From an uncultured Actinomycetota bacterium (GTDB taxonomy: Bacteria; Actinomycetota; Thermoleophilia; RBG-16-64-13): DNA of 64,000 nucleotides. This document shows positions 4,274 through 51,330 of this stretch, piece after piece. A program made the translations under genes and the position numbers. Each line of letters begins with the position of its first letter. Within the stretch, counting starts at the first letter, position 1. The notes below the pieces were generated by a model. It saw only the letters and a program-made list of their open reading frames with translations. It ran no database searches and was not told the DNA's origin. The stretch lies in assembly GCA_963843455.1 (NCBI GenBank), contig CAWJKE010000007.1, forward strand, positions 102,501 to 166,500, given 5' to 3'.

Positions 4274-5218
4274 TCAGCGACCGGCTTTTGGGCGCCGTGT
4301 GAGCCGGTTCACGAGCAGGTAGATCAAGGTCCCCAGTATCGCCAGGAACGCCACCGCCGCCCAGCCGAGGCCCAGTAGCACCACGATCGCGCCTGTCGGA
4401 AGGCCCACCGGCCCGTCCGGCGGCAGGCGGCGAGTGGTGCTGGTGCTGGTCAGAGTAGTCGTCGTGGTCACCGAAAGCCCGGCCTGCTCCAGAAGGGGCT
4501 GCCACCGGGTCCTCTCGAGACCCACATCGAAGGGCATCGGATACTGCACGCCGCCGGAGCCCACCGTGAGGGTCTGACCGGCCGTGGCCGGAACTCGCGC
4601 GTCGCCGGCCGCGGGAAGCACCTTCACCGGTCCGTCGAGGACCTTCACCACCGAGGCGTCTTGCGACGCGCCGAAGCTGAAGCTACCCGCCTCCAGGGCC
4701 GACACGGTCGCGTGGGGTAGAGCGATCGCGTCACGCTGGTTCAGGGTCACGTAGTCGAAGCGCACCCACGCCTCTCCCGCAAGCACGGCCAACCGTAACT
4801 TCGCTCCCGGCGGCAGGATCTGGATGGTCGTGCCCGGCTTCACGGCCGCCACACTGTGGTCTTCGAAGGCGAGGACACAACCGCCGTTGGGGCCCGTTCT
4901 AAGGAGTGATTCTCGAGGGAGCCTAGATCCCAACGACGGAGTTGCCCAGGTGACTCCTCCGTCGGTGCTGTGCTCCACCTGCCCGGACATGAAGCCGACC
5001 AGAGGGGGGACCTCGCGGATATTCGGCTCCGGAGACCATGCGTGGGCGGCGCCGGCCCCTGCGAGGGCCGGCCAGGCGACCAGGCAGAGGCCGACGACCA
5101 GCAAGGCTCGCGAGAGGCGCGGGTTCCGAAAACGCCGGTGTCGGAAGAGCGGCTGCGTTGCCCTTGCCTCCTGCGTATCCGAAGCGATGGTCACCTGAGG
5201 GCAAGTGACTTCTTTCAA
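4274..5218 (-). CDS. FecR-domain protein with C-terminal membrane anchor
   Basis: Central region (ILPPGAKLRLAVLAGEAWVRFD...) resembles FecR sensor domain; poly-Thr linker; C-terminal TM helix. Confidence 0.45.
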   Translation of the reverse strand: MKEVTCPQVTIASDTQEARATQPLFRHRRFRNPRLSRALLVVGLCLVAWPALAGAGAAHAWSPEPNIREVPPLVGFMSGQVEHSTDGGVTWATPSLGSRLPRESLLRTGPNGGCVLAFEDHSVAAVKPGTTIQILPPGAKLRLAVLAGEAWVRFDYVTLNQRDAIALPHATVSALEAGSFSFGASQDASVVKVLDGPVKVLPAAGDARVPATAGQTLTVGSGGVQYPMPFDVGLERTRWQPLLEQAGLSVTTTTTLTSTSTTRRLPPDGPVGLPTGAIVVLLGLGWAAVAFLAILGTLIYLLVNRLTRRPKAGR

Positions 5219-5386
5219 CGATAGTGAGTCCGACCGGCAAGACTGTCAAGGTTGGGGTTGGCGGCTGGCCGGGTCTAGCATCAATGCGTTCGGGGGCAGC
5301 TGTCGGCCTCAAGCACCTAACCTCGAGCGCCGATAGGGGACACGTAAGTCTCTGGCCCAGCTGGGCCTCCATACTCGAGGTGGCTG

Positions 5387-6367
5387 ATGTTGCGGCGTCG
5401 GGTTCTCATCCTGGTTCTTGGGGTGCTCGTTGCGTTCCTGGTGGCCGGCATGCTCGCTCCGGTGGCCTTGGCCGGACGGATGGCCGTCCCCGTTTGGAAG
5501 CAGAGCGACTCCCGCTGGGCCAGTCTCCACCTCGGCAGCAGCTCTTACACCATGTCCGGCTCTGGCTGCGCCGTCACGGCATGTGCCATGGTGGCCTCAT
5601 ACTTCGGCTCCTCCAAGGATCCGGGCGGGCTCTGCAAGGCGCTCAGCTCCGCTGGGGGGTTCACATCCGGCGGGGCCATCTACTGGCAGAGCGTGCCTAA
5701 GGCCGCGGGGGGCACCATCAGCTATGTCGGCCGCTGGGACTCCTGCTCTCTCACCCGGATCAACCAAGAACTGGACTCCGGCTATCCGGTGATAGTCCAG
5801 GTGAGCCTGAAGGGATCCACTCACTTCGTGGTCTTGACCGGCCGCGACGGCTCCACCTACTACATCAACGATCCCGGCTACGGCGACCAGACCACCCTCA
5901 ACGCACGCTATGGCACGCCGAGCACGGCCATCAAGGGGTTCCGCGTCTACCGCGGCACCCACGCGGCTCCCCCGCCACCAAGCCCGTACACCCGCTACCA
6001 GCAGACCGACTCCCACCTGGTGTATGCGGGAACCTGGTACACGTTCTCGACGAGCGGTCCCTCCGGTGGCAGCTACAAGCGGGCCGACACCAGCGGAGCC
6101 TCGGTCACGGCGACGTTCACCGGCACCTACCTGGCCTGGATCGCCACCGCGGGGACCACCCTGAGCAAGGCCTATGTGTCTTTGGACGGCGGGACCCCCG
6201 TCAATATCAACCTCGCGAGGACCGCGGTGGCCTATCAGCAGAAGGTGTGGAACACCGGTACCCTCGCCACGGGCAAACACACCGTCAAGATCTGGTGGGA
6301 CCTGGCCAATGCAGCCGGCAAGTTCATCAGCATCGATGCTTTCGACCTGCTGGGAGCTCTCAACTGA
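5387..6367 (+). CDS. secreted peptidase C39-like cysteine peptidase with C-terminal beta-rich module
   Basis: Signal peptide. Cys motif (GSGCAVTACAMVASYFG), His (THFVVLTG) and NDP as in C39-like/BtrH-like peptidases. C-terminal ~95 aa module (SGGSYKRADTSGASVTATFTGTYLAWIA...VSLDGGTPVNINL...GKHTVKIWW) is homologous to the four repeats in 36970-38868. Confidence 0.6.
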   Translation: MLRRRVLILVLGVLVAFLVAGMLAPVALAGRMAVPVWKQSDSRWASLHLGSSSYTMSGSGCAVTACAMVASYFGSSKDPGGLCKALSSAGGFTSGGAIYWQSVPKAAGGTISYVGRWDSCSLTRINQELDSGYPVIVQVSLKGSTHFVVLTGRDGSTYYINDPGYGDQTTLNARYGTPSTAIKGFRVYRGTHAAPPPPSPYTRYQQTDSHLVYAGTWYTFSTSGPSGGSYKRADTSGASVTATFTGTYLAWIATAGTTLSKAYVSLDGGTPVNINLARTAVAYQQKVWNTGTLATGKHTVKIWWDLANAAGKFISIDAFDLLGALN

Positions 6368-6608
6368 CCTAACGCCGGTTACCGCGCCGTTTAGGAATGT
6401 CGAACCGGAGGAATACGCCCACTGTGAGTCCCAAGAGGTAGCGCGTCCCGATCAGTCGAGACCGGCGCGGCGAGCATCCGCAAGAAAGCGGAATCCGCAC
6501 GACAAGCGGCGCAAGCCAGTCGGTTGCTGTAGTCGAGAGGGAAAAGCGGGTCAGTTGGGGCTCACTTTCTAGTGCTTGTCTCAGCCAACACGCATCGGGA
6601 GGTGCCTC

Positions 6609-6929
6609 ATGAGGTTCTTGGTGGTCACAAAGCAGACGGCTCCCATGCCCCCGGAGATGGTGCCGGGTCTGTTTGCAGCCATGAAGGCGTTCAGCGCGCG
6701 CTACACGGAGGCGGGCAAGATAGAACAGTCGTGGAGCTTCGCGGGTCTGCAAGGAGGCGGGGCCATCCTTGATGTCGGCTCTCTGGACGAACTCGATGAG
6801 ATCATGGCAGAGTTCCCCTTGGGACCCTTTTCGAAAATAAAGATCTATGGTCTGGTGCACCTGGATACATCGGTCGACCACGTCACGAAGGCGTTTGACG
6901 CCATGATGGGCGGCGGGGCCCAGCACTGA
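6609..6929 (+). CDS. muconolactone delta-isomerase family protein
   Basis: MRFLVVTKQTAPMPPEMVPGLFAA...DELDEIMAEFPL ~105 aa, fold and length of muconolactone isomerase family. Start chosen at ATG 6609, which has a GGGAGG RBS. Confidence 0.5.
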   Translation: MRFLVVTKQTAPMPPEMVPGLFAAMKAFSARYTEAGKIEQSWSFAGLQGGGAILDVGSLDELDEIMAEFPLGPFSKIKIYGLVHLDTSVDHVTKAFDAMMGGGAQH

Positions 6930-7038
6930 CCGCCGGCTACCACGACCACCAGCCCCCGCTCGAGTGACCGGGCGGGGGCTTTTTCCTGGCCGGGGAACAA
7001 TTCGAGCGACTTGTTGTCAAACGCCCGGGAGGAACGTC

Positions 7039-7704
7039 ATGGACTTACGCGAAGTGCTTGCCCTCAGACACTCCAGCCGCGCCTTCAAGCAGAAGGCCGT
7101 GCCCCGCGACGTGCTGGTGCGAATCGTGGAGGCCGCCACGCGCGCCCCCTCCTGGGGAAATACGCAGCCGTGGGAGATCTTTGTCGCGGTCGGAGACACA
7201 ATGAACGCCATCCGCGCTGCATACCTCGGGAACTTGCAGAACCAGGTCGCGCCGAATCCCGAGTACGGCCCGATCGAGGCCTGGCCCGAGCACGTCCTCC
7301 AGAGGTACACGGAAAGGGTGGCCGCGATTTGCGCCTATCTCGGAGTGGACCCGGCGGACCCGGCCGGTCAGAAAGCAGCCGCCGAGGGGCAGATGGCCTT
7401 CTTCGGGGCTCCGGCGGCCATCTTCCTCTGCAGCCATCCTGGACTCGAGCCTTGGTCTCTGTTCGACCTGGGCCTGGTTGCTCAGGGCATCATGCTGGGA
7501 GCCGTTGAGGAGGGCCTGAGCACGATCCCGGCATACTCGTCCGTCTCCTACCCAGACGTTCTTAGGCAGCAGCTTGAAATCCCGGGGGAGTACAAGATCG
7601 TTCTGGGGATACCGATAGGCTACGAGGATGAGGACAGCCCTGTGAACGCGTGCCGGAGCGAGCGTCGGCCCATCGACGAGGTGCTCAGAATCAAGGGGGC
7701 GTAG
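7039..7704 (+). CDS. nitroreductase family protein
   Basis: LALRHSSRAFKQKAVPRDVLVRIVEAATRAPSWGNTQPWEIFV - classic nitroreductase N-terminal motif. Start at ATG 7039. Confidence 0.8.
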   Translation: MDLREVLALRHSSRAFKQKAVPRDVLVRIVEAATRAPSWGNTQPWEIFVAVGDTMNAIRAAYLGNLQNQVAPNPEYGPIEAWPEHVLQRYTERVAAICAYLGVDPADPAGQKAAAEGQMAFFGAPAAIFLCSHPGLEPWSLFDLGLVAQGIMLGAVEEGLSTIPAYSSVSYPDVLRQQLEIPGEYKIVLGIPIGYEDEDSPVNACRSERRPIDEVLRIKGA

Positions 7705-7745
7705 CTCAGACTGCGTGTTTCAACGACGGCCGGGGGGCGTAGCGC

Positions 7746-8207
7746 TCACTCACTCGACCTCTCCACCCGGGCCAGTTCCGCCTCGTCGCCCTGCTGCTCA
7801 TAGGCCTCGGACATGAGCGGCGAGGAGATCAAGAAGTCGGCGGTAGAGCGGTTACAGGCGATGGGGACGTTGTAGACGACGGCGATGCGCAGCAGCGCCT
7901 TCACGTCCACGTCATGCGGGTGCGGCTCGAGCGGATCCCAGAAGAAGATGACCGCGTCGACTTCTCCTTCGGCGATCTTGGCTCCGATCTGCTGGTCGCC
8001 GCCCAGAGGACCGCTCCTGAGTTTCTTGATGCGAAGTCCGAGTTCGCGCTCGAGAAGCCCGCCCGTGGTGCCGGTGGCAAACAGCCTGTGGGCGGCCAAA
8101 GTGTCCCGGTTAAAGCGGGTCCAGTCGAGCAGATCCTCCTTCTTATTGTCGTGGGCGATAAGGGCGATGGTCTTTCGCGCGCCCGGTGGAATTCGTTTGG
8201 GACTCAT
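7746..8207 (-). CDS. mgsA: methylglyoxal synthase
   Basis: [19 protein letters not shown]...ATGTTGGLL...[11 protein letters not shown]...VIFFWDPL...PHDVDV - full MgsA motif set, ~153 aa. Start trimmed to the in-frame ATG (residue 112 of ORF-track ORF). Confidence 0.85.
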
Positions 8208-14207: not shown

Positions 14208-15163
14208 AAGATGTTCGCGAGTTGCTGCCCCGCATGGGCGGCATCGCCCTCAAGAACGGCCTGGTGCTGGTCTCCGACGATCACTGGGCCGCGGCCCTCA
14301 GAGAGAGCGACGGGAGTATCAGCGTCACCTCGGGCCGCAAGACCCGGTTGCCGTCTGGGGGGTCCCGGCGCGGCGCCCGGGCGGGTGCGGGCGCGGGGTT
14401 GGGCGCCGGCGCGCAGCCCGGCGCGCAGCCGCAGGTGGGCGACCTGCAAGGTCTCCCCATGGTGCGCGGCTTGGCCCGCTTCGCCGAGACCCTCCTGGTG
14501 CTGGCCCAGGTCAAGCTGCGGGTGCCTCAGGCCGAACTGCCCCTTGAAGGTGGACGGGTCGTCCTGGCTCTCGCCGCGGGCTACGCTGCCACGTCGACGG
14601 TGCGGAATCTGGGCCCCAAGTCGACCATCGTGCAGGAGACCGGCGCCGCGCTTGCCGCCTTCGTGCCCGCGGTCCTCTCTCTGAGGAATTCCGCCATCAC
14701 CGGGTATCACGGCGCGGAGCATAAGGTGATCGCCGGACGCGAAGCGGAGTTGCGGGCGGCCGCGGCCGGAGTCTCATACAGTCCGCGAGCCGGGCAGCCT
14801 TCGGCGGCTGCCGGGGCGGCGAAAGAGCACGATCGTTGCGGCTCGAACATCGTCGGCCCGTTGCTCCTGAGCACCATCGCGGCCAATGCCCTCATCCGAG
14901 GTAGGTCGGGACGTATGACGCCGGCCGGTTCGGCGGTGGCCACCGTGGTCAGCCTCGGGGCCGCGCTGGAGGCCCTGCGCTGGTCCACCCGGCACGGCGA
15001 CTCGCTGGCCGCCCGGCTGCTCATGTCGCCGGGGAGGATCATCCAGAAGACGCTCACCACCTCCGAGCCCACCCCGCAACAACTCGAAGTGGCCGAGCGG
15101 GCTATGAAGGAGTTGCTCAGGCTGGAGGCCGCGGGGGCCCGAAGCCCGGCGGTTCCTAGTTGA
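14204..15163 (+). CDS. DUF1385 (YqhQ-like) family protein
   Basis: YHGAEHKVIAGRE and HDRCGSNIVG motifs diagnostic of DUF1385; ATGA start/stop overlap with the MFS gene suggests translational coupling. Gly/Ala/Arg-rich low-complexity insertion. Confidence 0.6.
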   Translation: MKDVRELLPRMGGIALKNGLVLVSDDHWAAALRESDGSISVTSGRKTRLPSGGSRRGARAGAGAGLGAGAQPGAQPQVGDLQGLPMVRGLARFAETLLVLAQVKLRVPQAELPLEGGRVVLALAAGYAATSTVRNLGPKSTIVQETGAALAAFVPAVLSLRNSAITGYHGAEHKVIAGREAELRAAAAGVSYSPRAGQPSAAAGAAKEHDRCGSNIVGPLLLSTIAANALIRGRSGRMTPAGSAVATVVSLGAALEALRWSTRHGDSLAARLLMSPGRIIQKTLTTSEPTPQQLEVAERAMKELLRLEAAGARSPAVPS

Positions 15164-16254
15164 GCGGCGCTCCGGTCTGGGCCATCTGCGCAAGATACCC
15201 AAGGGCGCCCGTGTAGTCTTGGGAAGCCACCAGGAAGCCGAAGCCGCCGTACCAAAAGACCCACACCTGCTCTTCGCTCACGTCGTACCTCTCGACGGCG
15301 CCGGCCTTGAGATTATCGAGCAGGGCGGGCGTGGCGGCTTCGGTCCTCTTCACGGAGCGGGATTCGATGATGTCCCAGAGCAGAACCACGTCGCCGTTGG
15401 CGAACCGGTAGCCTTTGGCCGCGGTCATGGTGAGCGGCTGGGCGGCCTCAGGCAGCCAGTCCAGTTCCGCGCCGGCCATCACCTCGTAGGGCAGAGTGTC
15501 CGGAAGCCGCTTGCCCTGCACCCGGTCCTCGAACCTCCAGGCCTTGCCCTCGAAGCTCGACATCCCCGGGGGAAGTGTGGTCGAGGTGTTCTTCGGTCCG
15601 ACGGTGGTCCGGACCTGTTCGAGGGTCGTGAAGGCGAAAGGCGCCAGGATGTTGACGAACCGGTCTCCGGCCGCGAGGAATATCCCGTAGTTGTCGTTCC
15701 AGGGGAAGTACGCCCCCTGTGCTCCGGAGCCGATCGGCAGGTCTTTGTCACTGTGGTAGGAGAAGAAGAGCACCTTGTCCCCCCTCGACACTGGTGACTC
15801 GGCGGCGCCTCCCACCGGAGCCAGCAGCGCTAAGGCCACCGGGGTCCCGAAGCTGGGGCGACCCCTTGAGCACCTCATCGGGCTTGACGTAGAACACGAT
15901 GTAGGGGTTGGAAACGTCGCCGGCTGCGCTGTGAGGCGCATCGACCTTGGTCACGGTGCCCTGAACGATGAGCTGAGACTCGTTGGTGCAGTCTTCCACG
16001 GAAGGTGTGGCGACGAAGAGTTTGATGCCGGTCAACTGGGTCTGCGCGATCTCGCGGGCCTGCTCCAGTTGCTGCCGCTGCCGCGCCGTGGCCGCGGCGG
16101 TGGCGGGAGTGTTCGAGGTCGTCGGGGGGCCGACCTCGGCTGTGGGGGGCACGGCGGCGGTGCCGATACGGGTGCAGCCGGCCAGCGTCGGGACCGCCGC
16201 CAGTAGCAGTGCGCCACAGAGGATAGCCAAGGTCAAGCGTGCGGCCCGCGTCAT
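15156..16254 (-). CDS. lipoprotein (hypothetical), reading frame interrupted by one frameshift near 15860
   Basis: ORFs 15748-16296 and 15156-15941 are adjacent frames of one gene. N-terminal part has lipobox LAGCTRIG; protein-like sequence switches frame at ...YVKPDEVLKG / RPSFGTPVALALLAPVGG... in a G/C homopolymer at ~15856-15866. ATGA overlap with the upstream small gene at 16251-16254. Confidence 0.4.
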
Positions 16255-16601
16255 GGCCCCCCCACCAGTCCGTACGTCCGGTACTTGTGATCCCACGTGT
16301 AGACGACGATGCCGGTGGGGTCGGCGCCGGGAATGGGCGGCGCGGTAGTGAAGACCTCACGATCGGGCCATGGCGCGCGGCCCAAACGCACTGCGCCGGC
16401 CATAGACTCCGGCGACACCTCCGCGCCGCCTCTGTACTCGCGCGAGTGGAAGACGATCTGGTCTGAGGGGGACCAAGGATTGAGGGTGTGGCGGAAGAAG
16501 AACTGGTACCCGAAGAAGACGAGACAAAGAGCGACCACGGCGACGATCGCGACCCTCGCGACGCGTCTGGCGGTAAGGGGACGGCCTCTGAACTGTGGCA
16601 T
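16251..16601 (-). CDS. small membrane-anchored hypothetical protein
   Basis: 116 aa, one N-terminal TM helix (VARVAIVAVVALCLVFFGYQFFF); sits between the helical-domain gene and the lipoprotein on the same strand. Confidence 0.4.
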   Translation of the reverse strand: MPQFRGRPLTARRVARVAIVAVVALCLVFFGYQFFFRHTLNPWSPSDQIVFHSREYRGGAEVSPESMAGAVRLGRAPWPDREVFTTAPPIPGADPTGIVVYTWDHKYRTYGLVGGP

Positions 16602-16685
16602 GCCTCGCTCCTGCCGGTCCGTTTCCCGGCTCAGATACTACGCGAGCAAGTCGGGACGCGATAGGCCGAGGCGCGAGCGGTACTT

Positions 16686-17246
16686 CTATTTCTCGGGTAT
16701 CGAGTTTGTTCTTGCGACGCTCGTGTCGCTCCCGGTCACCAGATCGACGCTTATGCCGTTGGACACGCCAAGGTACTTGTCGATTAGAGCGGTTATCTGG
16801 GCCTTGGTCGTCTGAAGGGCGGCCTGTGCCTGGCTGACCGCGACCTGCTCCTGGGCGGCGATAGCGCGCAGTTGGTCGAACGTCGTCTTGTCGTCGGCGG
16901 TCATCTTCTCACCGATCAGGTCGAGGATCGCATTCTCCTTGGCCTGCTGCAGTTGCAGGTCGGCGGCGGCCGCGGCCGCCACGGCCGCCGCGGGCGTCGT
17001 GTCGACGGTCGGGAGTTGGAGGGCGGGAAGGGAGGTCGTGGACGAGGAGGAGGTGACGGCCGCCTGAGTGACGGCTGCTTGGGTGAGCGCGGTCGTGGAT
17101 GAGGCCGTAGCCGGGGTGAGAGAGTAGTTGTCGCCCGTGCCCGTGCTCGCGAGCGCGAAGGAGCCGATGCATAGGGTCAAGACAATGGCCAACACGGGGA
17201 CCACCCATTTGTTCTGGAAGAACCGCCCCCCGAAGAATCGCTTCAT
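16686..17246 (-). CDS. secreted/membrane-anchored helical protein, paralogue of the N-terminal domain of the adjacent M23 peptidase (alternative start at 17417 gives a 57-aa duplicated N-terminus)
   Basis: MKRFFGGRFFQNKWVVPVLAIVLTLCIGSFALA signal anchor; AGGGGG RBS; helical region ILDLIGEKMTADDKTTFDQLRAIAAQEQVAVSQAQ aligns with IVLKLVREKMSPADREALDKLVAAAATQQLDVGLSQS of the M23 protein. Two in-frame ATGs (17246, 17417) created by a 171-bp tandem duplication. Confidence 0.5.
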   Translation of the reverse strand: MKRFFGGRFFQNKWVVPVLAIVLTLCIGSFALASTGTGDNYSLTPATASSTTALTQAAVTQAAVTSSSSTTSLPALQLPTVDTTPAAAVAAAAAADLQLQQAKENAILDLIGEKMTADDKTTFDQLRAIAAQEQVAVSQAQAALQTTKAQITALIDKYLGVSNGISVDLVTGSDTSVARTNSIPEK

Positions 17247-17480
17247 TTCTGCCCCCTGGCTATCCCGGATTGCTCGTGGTGGTCGTCGACCCGGTGCCGG
17301 TGGTCGTGGGCGGATGGACCAGAGCGCGAAGGAGGCGATGCAGAGGGTCAAGACAATGGCCGACACGGGGACCACCCATTTGTTCTGGAAGAACCGCCCT
17401 CCGAAGAATCGCTTCATTTCTGCCCCCTGGCTATCCCGGATTGCTCGTGGCGGTCGTCGACCCGGTGCCGATGGTCGTCG
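17153..17480. repeat. tandem direct duplication, 2 x ~171 bp
   Basis: Unit gcgcgaaggagccgatgcatagggtcaagacaatggcc...gattgctcgtgg repeated head-to-tail with a few substitutions (period 171 = 57 codons). Each copy contains a pseudo/real stop of the M23 gene, the RBS, ATG and signal-anchor coding start of the downstream gene. Confidence 0.85.
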
Positions 17481-18681
17481 GGGGACCGACGAGCGTCGTG
17501 TCCGTCGTCGATGTCTCCGGCGCGGTCGTGGTCGACGTGGTCGACGTGGTGCCTGTCGACTCCGTAGTCGTGGTGTCGGTCGTGGACGGAGTCGTCGAAG
17601 ACGTATCCGTCGTGATCGTCGTCGTGGTTGTCGTGGTCGTAGGGGTCGTCGTGGTGGTTGTAGTGGTTGTAGTCGTTGTAGTGGTTGTGGTGGTCGCTGT
17701 CGTGGTGGTAGTGGTTGTGGTCGAGGTGCTCCCGACCACATCGGCTATGGTTGCCGCTCCCCGCAGAACCAGGTATGGATCGATGGCGATCCCGCCCCCT
17801 GGGTGGATCTCGAAGTGCAGATGGACGGCGCTGGCGCGCGCATCCCCGGAATTCCCGGCGTAGCCGACCACCTGTCCGGCCGCCACACGCACGCCGGTGC
17901 GCATCCCTTCGCCGAGAGATTCCAGATGGGCGTAGTAGTAGGAGTTGCCGTCGGCGCCCCGCAGCCAGACCGTCCGGCCTCCCAGACCGATGTCCAGGGG
18001 GTTCGCCCGGCCGATCACGCCGTCGACGACCGCGACGAGGGGGGTATTGCGGGCGCAGAAGATATCGGCACCCCGATGGGGATGGTAGCCGCCGGCGTAC
18101 CGGGGCGCGCCGAAGCTATCGCCGAAGCTGTTGCGGCCGGCCACGGGGAAGATCCAGTCGAGACCCACCTGGAAGATGGCGGCTGGCACCTCCGGATCCG
18201 GATATAACCCGACGGCTCCCTGTGCCCCGGTCGCCCCTTCGGGGGGCTCCAGCAGGTACGCGTCCGCGAGGTCCATCAGTTCCTCCTGGGCGGTGTCCAC
18301 GATGCTCTGGCTCAGCCCGACATCCAGTTGCTGTGTCGCGGCCGCGGCCACAAGCTTGTCGAGAGCCTCGCGGTCTGCCGGGCTCATCTTCTCTCTGACG
18401 AGCTTCAGTACGATCTCATCCTGGACAGCGGCCCCCTGCGATGCGGGCGCGGTGTCGGTGAAGCCGAGCAACGCCGAACTTTCGGTCACTTGGGGAAAGA
18501 GGTCCAGGGGTCCGAGCACGCCCTCGGTCTCGAGGATGCCCGAGGTCTGCGGAGGGGGAGCGGGCGCGTCGCCCCGCATCTCGGTCGTAGCGGCCAGTGC
18601 CGCCGGCGTACCGCCCATGACAAGGACGGCGGCTGCCGCGGGTATGACCAACATCGTCCAACGAGGTAGTCTTGGGCGCAT
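17431..18681 (-). CDS. M23 family metallopeptidase (LytM-like) with N-terminal helical domain and C-terminal poly-Thr tail
   Basis: GYHPHRGADIF ... NSGDARASAVHLHFEIH (HxxxD / HxH LytM motifs); signal peptide; C-terminal ~90 aa almost pure Thr/Ser. Confidence 0.85.
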   Translation of the reverse strand: MRPRLPRWTMLVIPAAAAVLVMGGTPAALAATTEMRGDAPAPPPQTSGILETEGVLGPLDLFPQVTESSALLGFTDTAPASQGAAVQDEIVLKLVREKMSPADREALDKLVAAAATQQLDVGLSQSIVDTAQEELMDLADAYLLEPPEGATGAQGAVGLYPDPEVPAAIFQVGLDWIFPVAGRNSFGDSFGAPRYAGGYHPHRGADIFCARNTPLVAVVDGVIGRANPLDIGLGGRTVWLRGADGNSYYYAHLESLGEGMRTGVRVAAGQVVGYAGNSGDARASAVHLHFEIHPGGGIAIDPYLVLRGAATIADVVGSTSTTTTTTTTATTTTTTTTTTTTTTTTTPTTTTTTTTITTDTSSTTPSTTDTTTTESTGTTSTTSTTTAPETSTTDTTLVGPPTTIGTGSTTATSNPG

Positions 18682-18812
18682 CCGACTCCGACCACCAAGG
18701 TTTGCACGTACAAATAGCTACACCGACATGGATCGGTGCACAACGGTTACCCTGGGGCGCTTCAGGCCAAACCCGGCACAGGGGGTTTTGGCCTGGGTAA
18801 AGTCCTCGCGAG

Positions 18813-19076
18813 ATGGAAAGGACCTGGCTCCATTCCGATGTCAGCAGGCATCAGACGCTCGCGGGCGCGTGGGTCACGCCTGAGCCGAGCCGCTGCGTAC
18901 AGTGCGGCATCTGCTCGTTCCACTGCCCGATGGACATCGACGTGCGCCGTTCGGTGTGGCTGGGCGAGCCGGTCGCGGACAGGCACTGTCTCACGTGCGG
19001 CCAGTGTGTGGAGCGCTGCCCCCGAGGTCTGTTGCGTTTCGAAGCGATCACCGGTGACGGCCAGGAGGCTAGATGA
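18813..19076 (+). CDS. 2x[4Fe-4S] ferredoxin
   Basis: Two CxxCxxCxxxCP motifs (CVQCGICSFHCP, CLTCGQCVERCP); ATGA overlap with downstream oxidoreductase. Confidence 0.7.
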   Translation: MERTWLHSDVSRHQTLAGAWVTPEPSRCVQCGICSFHCPMDIDVRRSVWLGEPVADRHCLTCGQCVERCPRGLLRFEAITGDGQEAR

Positions 19077-20395
19077 GCCGCCGCTACGTGGTGGTGGGGA
19101 GCGGCCCGGCAGCCTTCCAGGCCTGCGAGTCCATCAGGACCGTCGACACAACCGGCGACATCACCGTCATCGGTCGGGAGCCCGAGGCCTACTACTCTCG
19201 GCCCGGCCTCGCGTACTACCTGGCGGACGAGGTCAGCGAGGACGGGCTTTTCCCCTTGCGCGGGCAGGCATTGGCGCGGGTGGGGGCAGCATTCGTCTTG
19301 GGCACCGCTGAGGAAGTGCGCCCAGCGCACCATCAGGTGGCCCTCGACGACGGACAGGTCTTCGACTACGACCGCCTGCTTCTCGCTACGGGCTCCACGG
19401 CCATTATTCCGGCTGTGGAGGGCGTGGAACTGGATGGTGTGGTCACGCTGGACGACATGGGGGATGCCCGGGCCATCATCGCGCGCAGCCGGCAGGCTAA
19501 GGCCGCGGTCGTGGTCGGGGGCGGCATCACGGCTCTGGAGATCGTCGAAGGGTTGCTCGCCCGCAAGGTCAAGGTCCACTACCTGATGCGCAAAGAGCGC
19601 TACTGGAGCAACGTGCTCGCGGAGGCTGAGTCGCGGCTGGTCGAAGATCGTCTGCGCCGGTGCGGGGTGGCCATCCACTACTTCAGCGAGCTCGGGCGGA
19701 TCCTGGGACGCAAAGGACGGGTGGCCGGCGTGGAGACCACTGAGGGAGAGGTCATCCCCTGCCAGATGGTCGGCTTGGCCATCGGGGTGACGCCGCGGAA
19801 GCGACTGGCCGAAGCAGCCGGACTGGTGTGCGGGCGCGGAGTGATAGTGGACGAGCACCTTCGGTCGAGCGATCCCGACATCTTCGCTGCCGGCGACCTC
19901 GCGGAGACCCGGGACGCGGCCACCGGCCGCTCCACCATGGAGGTGTTGTGGAGTTCGGCCGTCGATAAGGGCCGGGTGGCGGGACTGAACATGGCAGCGA
20001 CGACGGCCCCGGAGCACGTCTACAGCAAGGCGTTGCCGCTCAATGTCACGCGGCTGGCCGGCTACCGGGTGACGATCATGGGCCGCGTGGGAAGCGGCGA
20101 GGACGCCGACCTCAAAGGCATTGCCCGAGGCGACAGCGAGACCTGGCGCCGAATGGGCGAGGCGACCACGGTGACGTCCGATTCGAAAGACACACACCTC
20201 CGCCTGGTCCTCGAGGACGACACGATTGGAGGGGCTGTGGTGATGGGCGACCAAGAGGCGTCGTTCCCTCTGCAGGGTCTCACCGCTTTCCGTGTCCCTC
20301 TGGGGGCCGCAAGGGACCGGTTACTGGAGCCGCGCGCCGATCTGGTCCCGCTGCTCGATCAGACGTGGCAGGCGTACCGGAGGCGCCATGCTTAG
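19073..20395 (+). CDS. FAD-dependent pyridine nucleotide-disulfide oxidoreductase (ferredoxin/rubredoxin reductase-like)
   Basis: Two Rossmann dinucleotide motifs (VVVGSGPAAF, AVVVGGGITALE), AAGDLAE FAD motif; class-I FAD/NAD(P)H oxidoreductase architecture. Confidence 0.8.
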   Translation: MSRRYVVVGSGPAAFQACESIRTVDTTGDITVIGREPEAYYSRPGLAYYLADEVSEDGLFPLRGQALARVGAAFVLGTAEEVRPAHHQVALDDGQVFDYDRLLLATGSTAIIPAVEGVELDGVVTLDDMGDARAIIARSRQAKAAVVVGGGITALEIVEGLLARKVKVHYLMRKERYWSNVLAEAESRLVEDRLRRCGVAIHYFSELGRILGRKGRVAGVETTEGEVIPCQMVGLAIGVTPRKRLAEAAGLVCGRGVIVDEHLRSSDPDIFAAGDLAETRDAATGRSTMEVLWSSAVDKGRVAGLNMAATTAPEHVYSKALPLNVTRLAGYRVTIMGRVGSGEDADLKGIARGDSETWRRMGEATTVTSDSKDTHLRLVLEDDTIGGAVVMGDQEASFPLQGLTAFRVPLGAARDRLLEPRADLVPLLDQTWQAYRRRHA

Positions 20396-20984
20396 CAGGA
20401 ACAAGGAGCTGTGGTTCGCGCTAGCCGCCATCGTTGTGATCACCGCGGGCTATTCCGCTTTCACCGCGGCCGCCAGCCGGCTGCCTGCTGCCTCCCATCT
20501 GCTCGGCCACGGCATCGGCATTCTGGGATTCGTGCTGATGCTCATGACCGAGACCCTCTACACGCTGAGGAAGCGCGCGAAGAGCGCGCGCTGGGGGAGG
20601 GTCTCGAAGTGGCTGAAGTTTCACATCTTCACGGGGCTGGTTGGTCCTTACATGGTGCTTCTTCATCCCGCGATGAGGTTCCGGGGTCTCGCCGCGGTGC
20701 TGAGTTTGCTGACGGTCGTCGTGGTTGCCAGCGGCGTTGTCGGCCGTTACATCTACACGCGCGTCCCGCGGACCGTCGAGATCCCGGTGGTGGGGCAGGC
20801 CGTCACGCCACCAGGCGTCGCTCCGGGGCCGGCGAGCGCGGTCCTGCCGTTGGCGCGCGTGACGCCCGCCAGGAAAGGCCTCGCCACCTGGCGCGCTGTG
20901 CACGTGCCGCTCACGTTTGTGCTCTTCATCGTCGCCTTCGTCCACATCGTCGGAGCCGTGTATTATGCGACGCTTCTCCGCTGA
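20388..20984 (+). CDS. 5-TM membrane protein with conserved His, putative di-heme b-type cytochrome (DUF4405-like)
   Basis: Five TM helices carrying HLLGH, FHIF, LLHP, AVHV, FVHIV; sits between the oxidoreductase and the multiheme cytochrome. Start at internal ATG 20388 (8-nt overlap with upstream gene). Confidence 0.4.
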   Translation: MLSRNKELWFALAAIVVITAGYSAFTAAASRLPAASHLLGHGIGILGFVLMLMTETLYTLRKRAKSARWGRVSKWLKFHIFTGLVGPYMVLLHPAMRFRGLAAVLSLLTVVVVASGVVGRYIYTRVPRTVEIPVVGQAVTPPGVAPGPASAVLPLARVTPARKGLATWRAVHVPLTFVLFIVAFVHIVGAVYYATLLR

Positions 20985-50316: not shown

Positions 50317-51330
50317 ATGGTCGGCGGAACTCGCCTTGCCCAAGCAAAGAGCCTGCTGGCGATAGCCGGCTTGGCGGCTGTCGCCGTCGCGCTGGTTGGT
50401 GCCAGTTTCGCGTGCGCTGCCAACATCACGACCGCACCGATCACCGCTGCTTCATCAAGCACTCTTGCCTCCACTACGACCACGCCATCCACCTCCTCCA
50501 TGCCGGAGACCACCACGTCGGTGCCGCAGAACACCACGTCGGTACCGCAGACCACCACGTCGGTACCGCAGACCACCAGCTCCGTGTCGCAGACCACCAG
50601 CTCCGTGTCGCAGACCACCACCTCGCTGGCCCCTGCCTCGACCACGACGGTCTCGTCTGTTGTGCGCCCGGTGATAGTCCTGGACCCCGGTCACAGCGGC
50701 ACCAGCCTCACGACCATCGATCCGGCGACACAGATACGCGATGAGGAGTACCTCAACACTCCCGAGACGAAGAACATGTTCGAAGTGGCCGTGCTGCTCA
50801 AGGCCAAGTTGGAAGCGGCGGGGTACACGGTCCTCATGACCAAGAAGGCGTGGAACGACACGGTCAGTAAGCGGGACAGAGTGAACTTTGCCAACAAGAA
50901 TCATGCTGCTCTTGGCGTAAGCATCCATACTTCTGGTCATACGTTTGGTGGCTACGGTGAGATCTACGTTCAGAGGATGGACTCGTACCGAGAGGACATC
51001 CACGGGAAGAAGGTCTACTTCGCGTTACCCGATGTGGCCGCTCTCAGCGCAAAGTACGGGCAGATATTTCTGGCAGAGCGCCGCAAGATAGAAGGCTCCA
51101 GCATCCGGATCACCGTGAACACCAGCTGGGGAGGGCGGGGGCTCGCTCCAGGCAACATCCCCATCGTCCAGTTGTTCTCGAAGGTGCCCTGGATCCTCAA
51201 TGAAGCCGGTGTGCCTGGGAATGCGAAAGAGAAAGAGCGCTATGCCCAGAGTCTGTTCAACAGCATCGTGAAGTGCGTCCCTATCGGCGACGCGGCTTCG
51301 CCGCCTGAGTCTTCCACGCCCGCCTCCTAG
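50317..51330 (+). CDS. N-acetylmuramoyl-L-alanine amidase (Amidase_3 family) with Thr/Ser/Pro-rich repeat linker
   Basis: Signal peptide; IVLDPGHSG...E...H Amidase_3 motifs; linker of TTSVPQ repeats. Start at internal ATG (MVGGTRL...). Confidence 0.8.
   Translation: MVGGTRLAQAKSLLAIAGLAAVAVALVGASFACAANITTAPITAASSSTLASTTTTPSTSSMPETTTSVPQNTTSVPQTTTSVPQTTSSVSQTTSSVSQTTTSLAPASTTTVSSVVRPVIVLDPGHSGTSLTTIDPATQIRDEEYLNTPETKNMFEVAVLLKAKLEAAGYTVLMTKKAWNDTVSKRDRVNFANKNHAALGVSIHTSGHTFGGYGEIYVQRMDSYREDIHGKKVYFALPDVAALSAKYGQIFLAERRKIEGSSIRITVNTSWGGRGLAPGNIPIVQLFSKVPWILNEAGVPGNAKEKERYAQSLFNSIVKCVPIGDAASPPESSTPAS
50509..50613 (+). repeat. 5 x 21-bp tandem coding repeat (TTSVPQT/TSSVSQT)
   Basis: accaccacgtcggtgccgcag / aacaccacgtcggtaccgcag / accaccacgtcggtaccgcag / accaccagctccgtgtcgcag x2, inside the amidase linker. 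Confidence 0.75.

What the first reader, a model, noticed from the sequence alone, without database searches (positions are those of the whole stretch)
17153..17480. 171-bp in-frame tandem duplication spanning a gene boundary, creating two RBS+ATG starts and a duplicated signal anchor
The unit contains, on the minus strand, the last ~18 codons and stop of the M23 peptidase gene, the 13-nt RBS spacer and the first ~38 codons (MKRFFGGRFFQNKWVVPV...signal anchor) of the downstream gene. It is duplicated head-to-tail with ~10 substitutions. Because 171 = 57 codons, translation from the upstream ATG (17417) reads through a 57-aa insert into the second start (17246).
- The copies have diverged (e.g. 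...LCIASFALW vs ...LCIGSFALA), so this is not a trivial assembly artefact of identical repeats.
- It could modulate expression or topology of the downstream helical protein.
Basis: seen in the sequence. Interest (0 to 1): 0.55.

Follow-up and report, generated by a model that had tools for sequence, protein, structure and literature searches.

The report
Small tandem duplication across gene boundary
A 171-base stretch spanning the end of a cell-wall peptidase gene and the start of the next gene is genuinely present twice in a row, giving that gene a spare in-frame start site, but nothing suggests it is more than a tolerated, lineage-specific duplication.

Summary
Window 17151-17492 holds two head-to-tail copies of a 171-nt unit that differ at 11 positions. 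It is the only long-period tandem repeat in the 64 kb.

On the minus strand, each unit carries three things:
- the last 19 codons and stop of an M23 peptidase gene;
- a 13-nt spacer with a GGGGG ribosome-binding site;
- the first 32 codons (not about 38) of a small secreted helical protein.

The two ATGs (17417 and 17246) are 57 codons apart, in frame, with identical upstream signals.

An independent assembly of a related Thermoleophilia-type genome (L081) has the same duplication with the same 10 copy-specific substitutions, so it is not an assembly artefact. Twelve more distant loci and 25 homologous proteins have one start and one signal peptide, so the duplication is restricted to this lineage.

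Only the downstream copy keeps the family-invariant Ala-x-Ala cleavage motif. The junction turns it into ALW in the upstream copy.

Best reading: a replication-slippage-type duplication that is tolerated because both genes stay intact and the extra material lies before the signal-peptide cleavage site. An adaptive long isoform is neither excluded nor supported. Interest is low to moderate; this is a new instance of a known kind of event.

The parts
17322..17492 (-). Copy A, the upstream copy on the coding strand. It carries the genuine M23 C-terminus (LVGPPTTIGTGSTTATSNPG*), the spacer with SD-A, ATG-A, and 32 codons of a signal-peptide copy: MKRFFGGRFFQNKWVVPVSAIVLTLCIASFAL.
17151..17321 (-). 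Copy B, the downstream copy. It carries a relic of the M23 tail that still reads LVHPPTTTGTGSTTTTSNPG* in the M23 frame, the spacer with SD-B, ATG-B, and the first 32 codons of the native signal peptide.
17431..18681 (-). M23 (LytM-type) peptidase gene, 416 aa. It has an N-terminal signal peptide, a helical domain, the M23 domain (residues 201-302) and a Thr-rich tail of about 100 aa. Its stop TAG is at 17431-17433, inside copy A.
   Evidence: (Pfam PF01551, E 7.8e-19)
17423..17427 (-). SD-A (GGGGG), 5 nt upstream of ATG-A (17415-17417) and 10 nt downstream of the M23 stop.
17252..17256 (-). SD-B (GGGGG), 5 nt upstream of ATG-B (17244-17246). The 25 nt upstream of ATG-B are identical to those upstream of ATG-A.
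16686..17246 (-). Canonical short form of the downstream gene, 186 aa. It has a signal peptide (cleavage predicted at ALA|STG after residue 33), a Thr/Ser/Ala-rich disordered linker, a helical hairpin (about residues 86-159) and a short tail. This is the form held in public protein collections.
16686..17417 (-). Possible long form, 243 aa, started at ATG-A. It is the short form with a 57-aa N-terminal extension.
   Evidence: this exact sequence is absent from the protein collection
17247..17321 (-). Junction linker of the long form, 25 codons: WSIRPRPPAPGRRPPRAIRDSQGAE. It is the M23 tail relic plus the spacer, read in the +1 frame. It is Arg/Pro-rich and includes the six clustered substitutions.
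17148..17246 (-). Native signal peptide (copy B plus one codon): n-region with 4 K/R, a 19-aa h-region, and the Ala-Leu-Ala cleavage motif.
   Evidence: (A31 and A33 invariant)
16770..16940 (-). Helical domain of the small protein, paralogous to residues 87-143 of the M23 peptidase.
   Evidence: (E 3e-8)

Best explanation
This is a genuine, lineage-restricted tandem duplication of 171 nt across the boundary between an M23 peptidase gene and the downstream gene for a small secreted helical protein.

**Origin (inferred).** The most likely cause is replication slippage or template switching, that is, a microhomology-mediated-type tandem duplication. It is not a mobile element and not an assembly error.

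**Why it persists (inferred).** It appears nearly harmless for three reasons:
- Copy A leaves the M23 reading frame, C-terminus and stop unchanged.
- Copy B leaves the downstream gene with its complete native ribosome-binding site, ATG and cleavable signal peptide.
- All the extra sequence lies upstream of the signal-peptidase site.

**Expected expression (inferred).** Both ATGs have identical initiation signals, and ATG-A also sits 13 nt after the M23 stop. Ribosomes therefore probably start at both.
- The ATG-B product (186 aa) is the functional, exported protein.
- The ATG-A product (243 aa) has an uncleavable first hydrophobic segment (ALW replaces ALA), then a 38-residue loop with 10 Arg/Lys, then the native signal peptide.
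- The long form is expected to be exported poorly or, if the second signal peptide engages Sec, to be cut at the same ALA|STG site to give the same mature protein.

**Shown versus inferred.** Shown: the structure, the reading frames, the presence in two assemblies, the single copy in relatives, and the motif conservation. Inferred: the mechanism of origin, which starts are used, the fate of the long form, and neutrality.

**Confidence.** About 0.95 that the duplication is real and lineage-restricted. About 0.6 for the whole statement, including tolerated and not adaptive.
For: - **The repeat is real and unique.**
- **Independent assembly.** L081 (ENA ERZ25039502, contig_70190, 136 kb) shows both copies. 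Ten of the copy A/B differences are fixed in both genomes, and the ATGs are 171 nt apart in both.
- **Relatives have one copy.** The 38-aa N-terminal peptide hits twice only in L081 and once in each of 12 other loci. L092 and L093 read M23 Thr-rich tail, stop, a 15-19-nt spacer, then a single ATG. Of the 26 database homologs aligned, 25 are 157-198 aa with one signal peptide; P0001, L081's own protein, was called from an internal GTG.
- **Cleavage motif.** A31 and A33 are invariant in the family. Copy B keeps them; copy A ends in ALW.
- **Identical starts.** The SD and the 25 nt upstream are the same for both ATGs. RNA accessibility shows no decisive difference.
- **Long-form loop.** It has 10 K/R and net charge +8. 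Arginine is rate-limiting for Sec transport (PMC9110029).
- **Annotation.** Public annotation uses the 186-aa form. The 243-aa form is not on record.
- **Copy evolution.** Each copy has one derived amino-acid change relative to the family consensus: S19L in B and G28A in A. Neither copy looks specially protected.
- **Known mechanism.** Tandem duplications of 10-500 bp are reported as common de novo events in bacteria (bioRxiv 10.64898/2026.02.28.708716).
Against: - **No clean microhomology.** The boundaries now share at most 2 nt in register. A CGCTCG/CGCTCT/CGCTCG triplet exists but is spaced 169 + 171 nt, 2 nt out of register. The microhomology model is therefore neither confirmed nor refuted.
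- **Clustered differences.** Six of the 11 differences fall in the 22 nt next to the junction (binomial p about 1e-3, own estimate). Simple neutral decay does not explain this.
- **The upstream start is still intact.** If the long form were harmful and ATG-A were used efficiently, one would expect ATG-A or SD-A to be lost or the frame to be broken. Both are intact in two lineages, though those lineages share a nearly identical block, so little time may have passed.
- **No direct data.** There is no expression, read-level or export data.
Confidence: 0.6

Rival explanations
1. Adaptive dual-isoform gene. The duplication gives two proteins from one gene. ATG-B yields a secreted form with a cleaved signal peptide. 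ATG-A yields a membrane-retained or differently oriented form, because the first hydrophobic segment has lost its cleavage site. This would, for example, tether a partner or regulator of the neighbouring M23 peptidase.
For: - The two starts are in frame, with identical SDs and no stop between them.
- Copy A loses the AxA motif specifically (ALW), while its h-region remains strongly hydrophobic (Kyte-Doolittle 2.27 over 19 aa).
- ATG-A, SD-A and the open frame are kept in both genomes.
- The small protein shares a helical domain with the M23 peptidase, so a functional link with the neighbour is plausible.
Against: - Being in frame and stop-free has a chance probability of about 0.18 (own estimate).
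- The two genomes share a block that is about 99.3% identical, so conservation carries almost no weight.
- None of the 12 other loci or 25 homologs has a second start.
- The Arg-rich +8 loop between two hydrophobic segments conflicts with placing the C-terminal domain outside the cell (positive-inside rule, established knowledge; PMC9110029).
Confidence: 0.13
2. Expression tuning. The duplicated start acts as an in-frame leader. Ribosomes that finish M23 re-initiate at ATG-A and read through SD-B. This changes the yield of the downstream protein relative to M23, or couples the two more tightly.
For: - The M23 stop lies 13 nt before ATG-A, the same coupling geometry as in single-copy relatives, where the spacer is 15-19 nt.
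- In a 560-nt fold, SD-B is somewhat less accessible than SD-A (0.13 against 0.40 mean unpaired probability).
Against: - The accessibility difference is small and depends on the model. Local folding energies are similar.
- No relative uses such an arrangement.
- Any effect on yield would come together with an altered N-terminus.
Confidence: 0.1
3. The copies were already divergent when they were joined. An unequal or illegitimate recombination between two diverged alleles, for instance incoming DNA from a related lineage, created the tandem arrangement. A related variant is that a later recombination tract ending near 17470 replaced the M23 side. This is a rival account of the origin and of the divergence pattern only. 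It says nothing different about function.
For: - Recombination between lineages is evident at this very locus: a 3.2-kb block at about 0.7% divergence sits inside flanks at 5-20%.
- The six clustered differences in the 22 junction-proximal nt include three that are synonymous in the M23 frame (CTC/CTG, CCC/CCG, CCG/CCC). Copy B still reads as a good M23 tail in that frame. This is what two functional alleles would look like.
Against: - The same synonymous bias arises if the substitutions simply occurred in copy A, which is still under selection as the M23 tail.
- Only 22 nt are involved.
- No single-copy genome close enough to serve as a donor or recipient reference was found.
Confidence: 0.15
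4. Assembly or polishing artefact, for example two strain variants concatenated or a mis-expanded repeat.
For: - The window shows at least one likely homopolymer indel: C4 against C3 at 15858 splits an ORF that is intact in L081. The assembly is therefore not error-free.
- No reads are available.
Against: - A second assembly from a genome that is about 7.6% divergent outside the shared block has the same two copies, the same 10 diagnostic differences and the same 171-nt spacing.
- The whole repeat is only 342 nt, shorter than single long reads.
- The copies are diverged, so a repeat-collapse or repeat-expansion error is unlikely.
Confidence: 0.03

Closest known systems
Short tandem duplications formed by replication slippage or microhomology-mediated tandem duplication (MTD; bioRxiv 10.64898/2026.02.28.708716; also PMC8639346)
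   Same: A single-copy segment in the 10-500 bp size range has been duplicated head to tail with no spacer. There are no mobile-element features. Relatives have one copy.
   Different: The microhomology arm of at least 4 bp that defines this class is not present in register. A CGCTC(G/T) motif is 2 nt out of register. The copies have diverged by 6%, with differences clustered at the junction, so this is an old, fixed event rather than a reversible subclonal one.
Duplication join-points that create fused or extended reading frames in bacteria (classical tandem-duplication genetics, Anderson and Roth; own knowledge)
   Same: The join-point places the 5' part of one gene in front of sequence from the upstream gene's 3' end. 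This creates a novel in-frame coding junction, here ALW-SIRPRPP...
   Different: The unit is only 171 nt and lies within a single gene boundary. No new gene fusion results, only an N-terminal extension of the same gene.
Engineered tandem or internalised signal peptides (for example the work of Coleman, Inukai and Inouye, 1985; own knowledge, not checked here)
   Same: Two signal-peptide-like segments lie in series at the N-terminus. The second keeps its signal-peptidase site.
   Different: This is a natural case. The first segment has lost its cleavage site, and the two are separated by a very basic 38-residue loop. The outcome has not been tested.
In-frame alternative translation starts that give N-terminal isoforms in bacteria (for example IF2 and ClpB; own knowledge)
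   Same: Two in-frame ATGs each have a Shine-Dalgarno sequence in one mRNA.
   Different: In the known cases the arrangement is conserved and both products are demonstrated. Here it is confined to one lineage and no product is demonstrated.

Membership tests
Simple tandem duplication (slippage / MTD type) | Two head-to-tail copies with no spacer and a constant period | tested here: met
   Period 171, 2.0 copies, 0% indels. The offset-171 comparison agrees.
Simple tandem duplication (slippage / MTD type) | The segment is single-copy in related genomes | tested here: met
   One signal-peptide hit in each of 12 related loci and two only in L081. L092 and L093 were read directly.
Simple tandem duplication (slippage / MTD type) | Microhomology arm of at least 4 bp at both ends and at the junction, in register | tested here: inconclusive
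   At most 2 nt now match in register. CGCTCG (17495-17490), CGCTCT (17326-21) and CGCTCG (17155-50) are spaced 169 and 171 nt. The junction-proximal 22 nt carry 6 substitutions that could hide the original arm.
Mobile element or dispersed repeat | Further copies elsewhere, terminal inverted repeats, or a transposase or recombinase gene | tested here: not met
   There is no other copy in the 64 kb. No flanking inverted repeat beyond short chance matches was found.
Assembly artefact | Absent from independent assemblies or reads | tested here: not met
   Present in L081 with the same diagnostic substitutions. Read-level data are not available.
Sec-type cleavable signal peptide (signal peptidase I) | Positively charged n-region, hydrophobic h-region, and small residues at -3 and -1 (Ala-x-Ala) | tested here: met
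   Copy B has an n-region with 4 K/R, a 19-aa h-region and ALA|STG. A31 and A33 are invariant in 27 sequences. SignalP was not available. Copy A fails the -1 rule (Trp).
Lipoprotein signal peptide | Lipobox [LVI][ASTVI][GAS]C with an invariant Cys | tested here: not met
   The sequence is LTLC, with Leu at -1. The Cys is replaced by Ser or Ala in several homologs.
Peptidase M23 (upstream gene) | Match to Pfam PF01551 above the gathering score | tested here: met
   68.1 bits against a cut-off of 28.7, E 7.8e-19, residues 201-302.
Conserved dual-start isoform gene | A second in-frame start conserved among homologs, and both products made | tested here: not met
   No other homolog has the second start. 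Whether both products are made cannot be tested with these tools.
Contingency or phase-variable tandem repeat | Copy number varies between close relatives or within a population | tested here: inconclusive
   Both available genomes have exactly two copies. No population reads were available.

The most novel reading that the evidence does not exclude
The duplication has been recruited to make two forms of the small helical protein from one gene. ATG-B gives a secreted form whose signal peptide is cleaved. ATG-A gives a form whose first hydrophobic segment has lost its cleavage site (ALA to ALW) and acts as a permanent membrane anchor or reverses the topology. This would control where a partner of the adjacent M23 cell-wall peptidase acts. 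It would be a natural example of a new membrane-tethered isoform arising in one step from a duplication at a gene boundary.
Probability: 0.1. Interest if true: 0.45.

Novelty: new member of a known kind. Interest (0 to 1): 0.2.

Why it matters
The main value is as a clean natural example of how a small duplication across a gene boundary can add an N-terminal extension and a second start site without damaging either gene. That is raw material for new protein isoforms.

It also matters for annotation. Gene callers must choose between two identical start contexts, and public annotation picked the downstream one.

It does not open a long-standing question, and specialists would not find it surprising.

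Tried and rejected
- **Exact-protein look-ups.** Look-ups of the window's M23 protein and of its short form found no contig on record, so the source record could not be retrieved.
- **First metagenome scan.** A scan with the single protein confirmed no relatives. The second scan, with an alignment, gave only 10 short, distant loci.
- **Missing DNA.** The contigs of the closest other homologs (P0002, P0004 and the 32-kb contig of P0005) were not retrievable.
- **No intermediate lineage.** No single-copy genome of intermediate relatedness (over 70% amino-acid identity) was found. The age and polarity of the duplication could therefore be judged only from distant outgroups.
- **TRF on L081.** Tandem Repeats Finder did not list the 171-nt repeat there. 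The repeat is plain in the sequence and in BLAST and alignment output.
- **Function of the small protein.** Pfam, NCBIfam and PDB sequence searches gave no family. The AlphaFold model has mean pLDDT 55, too low for a meaningful fold search, so none was run.
- **Regulatory signals.** The promoter and terminator scan found nothing between the genes.
- **RNA accessibility.** Comparison of the two starts was not decisive.
- **Literature.** A search for natural tandem signal peptides found nothing relevant.
- **Junction alignment.** A gapped alignment of the junction that would put the CGCTC motif in register was considered. It was rejected as less parsimonious (2 substitutions plus 4 indels, against 6 substitutions). 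The ungapped alignment also preserves the M23-frame reading.
- **Plus-strand ORFs.** The ORFs over the repeat (17128-18207 and 17270-17863) are antisense to a Pfam-supported gene in a 66% G+C genome. They were dismissed as mechanical.

Full report
**1. The observation**

On the plus strand, Tandem Repeats Finder reports a 171-nt period at 17151-17485 with 2.0 copies, 95% matches, no indels and score 614. The repeat finder gives the two copies as 17151-17321 and 17322-17492 at 94% identity.

Comparing every base with the base 171 nt away gives 11 differences. Five lie in a 149-nt core. Six lie in the 22 nt that follow the junction, where 16 of 22 bases match. That weaker end is still homologous. 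Only 3 of about 64,000 positions of the window match the 22-mer that well, and none of 246 in the adjacent Thr-rich tail does.

No other tandem repeat in the window has a period above 21 nt. The unit occurs nowhere else in the window.

**2. Anatomy (minus strand)**

The upstream gene (17431-18681, 416 aa) has a Peptidase_M23 domain (Pfam PF01551, E 7.8e-19). NCBIfam gives weak matches to peptidoglycan endopeptidases. The gene ends in a Thr-rich tail of about 100 aa...LVGPPTTIGTGSTTATSNPG*.

Thirteen nucleotides after its TAG (CCAGGGGGCAGAA, with a GGGGG Shine-Dalgarno 5 nt before the start) comes ATG-A at 17417.

The unit therefore contains:
- 62 nt of the M23 3' end (2 nt, 19 codons and the stop);
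- the 13-nt spacer;
- 96 nt, or 32 codons, of the next gene.

The second copy repeats all of this, so ATG-B (17246) lies exactly 57 codons downstream of ATG-A. It is in frame with no stop between. The 25 nt upstream of the two ATGs are identical.

In the M23 frame, copy B still reads LVHPPTTTGTGSTTTTSNPG*. In the frame of the long ORF it reads WSIRPRPPAPGRRPPRAIRDSQGAE.

**3. The downstream gene and its family**

A search of the large protein collection found 28 relatives. They come from Thermoleophilia and other Actinomycetota metagenome bins. No Pfam, NCBIfam or PDB family matches.

Twenty-six of these relatives were aligned with the window's short form. Twenty-five are 157-198 aa long and have one N-terminal signal peptide of consensus MKRxFxxRxxxNKWVVPxSALxLTLCIGSFALAxTG. 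The exception is P0001, L081's own protein, which was called from an internal GTG. Ala31 and Ala33, the Ala-x-Ala motif of signal peptidase I substrates, are invariant. The Cys is not invariant and the -1 residue before it is Leu, so this is not a lipoprotein.

An AlphaFold model (mean pLDDT 55, low) gives a helix at 8-33, disorder at 34-85 and a helical hairpin at 86-159.

Copy B carries the family-typical ...CIGSFALA|STG. Copy A reads ...CIASFALW, because the junction replaces the -1 alanine with tryptophan.

The public collection holds the 186-aa ATG-B form of this very protein (NCBI and ENA, on a 662-kb contig) but not the 243-aa form. Annotators therefore chose ATG-B.

**4. Is it real, and how widespread is it?**

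The closest relative, P0001 (98% identity), lies on ENA ERZ25039502 contig_70190 (136 kb), fetched as L081. L081 contains the same two copies.

In a four-way alignment, 10 of the A/B differences are fixed in both genomes. Only one substitution in each genome's copy A is lineage-specific. L081's copy B has a G5 run where the window has G6. The ATG-to-ATG distance is 171 nt in both.

The contig name suggests a long-read assembly, but I could not verify this.

Outside a shared block, the two genomes differ by about 7.6%, so they are different genomes. An artefact reproducing the same diverged duplicate in both is implausible.

The duplication lies inside a 3.2-kb block (about 15167-18364) that has only 25 substitutions (about 0.7%), while the flanks are 5-20% divergent. 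The two genomes therefore share this block by recent descent or recombination. Its presence in both proves the duplication is real, but it says little about long-term retention.

More distant relatives have one copy:
- The 38-aa N-terminal peptide hits twice only in L081 and once in each of 12 other loci.
- In L092 and L093 the sequence reads M23 Thr-rich tail, stop, a spacer of 15-19 nt, then a single ATG.

**5. How it probably arose**

A head-to-tail duplication of 171 nt, with no spacer, no other copies and no mobile-element features, fits replication slippage or template switching. Microhomology-mediated tandem duplications of 10-500 bp are reported to be the dominant class in microbes (bioRxiv 10.64898/2026.02.28.708716).

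The defining microhomology arm could not be shown. At most 2 nt match in register. A CGCTCG / CGCTCT / CGCTCG series is present, but it is spaced 169 and 171 nt.

Six of the 11 differences cluster next to the junction (about p = 1e-3 by a binomial estimate of my own). I cannot separate four possible reasons:
- error-prone synthesis at the join;
- gene conversion that has homogenised the rest of the unit;
- faster change in the Thr-rich M23 tail of copy A. Three of the six differences are synonymous in the M23 frame;
- an origin from, or later recombination with, a diverged allele.

Compared with the family consensus and with L093, each copy has two derived changes in the signal-peptide part: GGG and TTG (S19L) in copy B, and CTC and GCC (G28A) in copy A. 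Neither copy appears more constrained, although the outgroup is distant.

**6. How it probably works**

What the sequence shows directly:
- The M23 gene is unchanged by the duplication.
- The downstream gene keeps a full native start and signal peptide.
- A second start with identical signals lies 57 codons upstream, in the position normally coupled to M23 termination.

What I infer is that both starts are used. Predicted RNA accessibility does not clearly favour either one.

The long product would have this layout:
- an n-region with 4 K/R;
- a 19-aa hydrophobic segment without a cleavage site;
- a 38-residue loop with 10 Arg/Lys (net charge +8);
- the native signal peptide and cleavage site.

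By the positive-inside rule (established knowledge), and because arginine is rate-limiting for Sec transport (PMC9110029), that loop should stay in the cytoplasm. Two outcomes follow:
- The second hydrophobic segment acts as the signal peptide and the protein is cut at ALA|STG, giving the normal mature protein.
- Alternatively, export is poor.

In both cases the functional product is the normal mature protein, and the duplication is tolerated rather than required.

Being in frame and stop-free has a prior probability of roughly 0.18. This is one third for the frame, multiplied by about 0.53 for no stop in 25 new codons at this G+C content (my estimate). It is therefore not evidence of selection.

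**7. Rivals**

| Rival | Probability |
|---|---|
| Adaptive secreted / tethered isoform pair | about 0.13 |
| Effect on translational coupling or yield | about 0.10 |
| Inter-allelic origin of the divergence (concerns history, not function) | about 0.15 |
| Assembly artefact | about 0.03 |

None of these is required by the data. The isoform idea is the most interesting of them and is directly testable.

**8. Comparison with known things, and verdict**

This is a new instance of a well-known kind of event: a small tandem duplication whose join-point creates an in-frame extension. It resembles engineered tandem signal peptides and natural dual-start genes in form. It fails the membership test for a conserved dual-start gene, because no homolog shares the second start.

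Its functional suggestion is untested.

Interest is low to moderate (0.2). Novelty: new member of a known kind.

Noticed in passing
window 15167-18364 (against L081 about 5000-8040): A 3.2-kb block is about 99.3% identical between the window and L081 (25 substitutions). The flanking DNA is 5-20% divergent. The block runs from inside the M23 gene, just after its helical domain, to the stop of the 379-aa lipoprotein-like ORF. It looks like a recent recombination or exchange between lineages diverged to roughly species level.
   Followed up: partly
window 18252-18420 (M23 residues 87-143) and 16770-16940 (small protein residues 103-159); also L001 6010-6420 and L092 1438-1836: The N-terminal part of the M23 peptidase (signal peptide, linker and helical domain) is paralogous to the whole downstream small protein (BLASTP E 3e-8 in the window, and up to residues 10-162 in L001). 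The gene pair therefore looks like the product of an older, larger duplication at the same locus. The helical domain has no Pfam, NCBIfam or PDB match.
   Followed up: partly
window 15858 (minus-strand ORFs 15748-16296 and 15156-15941): The window has a CCCC run where L081 has CCC. This splits what is a single lipoprotein-like ORF (LAGC lipobox) into two overlapping ORFs of 182 and 261 aa. The ORF is called as 365 aa in L081 and is 379 aa from the GTG after the correction. It is either a homopolymer sequencing error in the window or a real frameshift.
   Followed up: partly
L081 5960-5966 (equivalent to window 17231): L081 has G5 where the window has G6, in codons 6-7 of copy B. This frameshifts both possible forms of the small protein, so the gene caller started at an internal GTG (169 aa, P0001). 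L081 differs from the window by 81 gap openings over 9 kb, and its M23 gene is not called as one ORF, so sequencing error is likely.
   Followed up: partly
window 17434-17740: The M23 peptidase ends in a tail of about 100 aa that is almost pure Thr (TTTTTTTATTTT...). The underlying DNA shows periodicities of 9, 27 and 30 nt. Relatives (L092, L093) have similar Thr-rich tails ending in ...TTNPS* or ...TSNSQ*. It may be a glycosylated or wall-spanning linker with no domain after it.
   Followed up: no
window 50489-50624: A 21-nt unit is repeated 6.5 times in tandem (87% matches). In plus frame 2 it encodes TTSVPQT-type Thr/Ser-rich heptad repeats. It is another low-complexity linker in a different gene.
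   Followed up: no
window 18800-20400 and the contig of P0005; L081 3097-4380: Gene order is conserved across relatives at 58-98% identity: Pyr_redox_2 oxidoreductase, 4Fe-4S ferredoxin-like gene, M23 peptidase, small helical protein. In L081 the oxidoreductase is called only as a 107-aa fragment.
   Followed up: no
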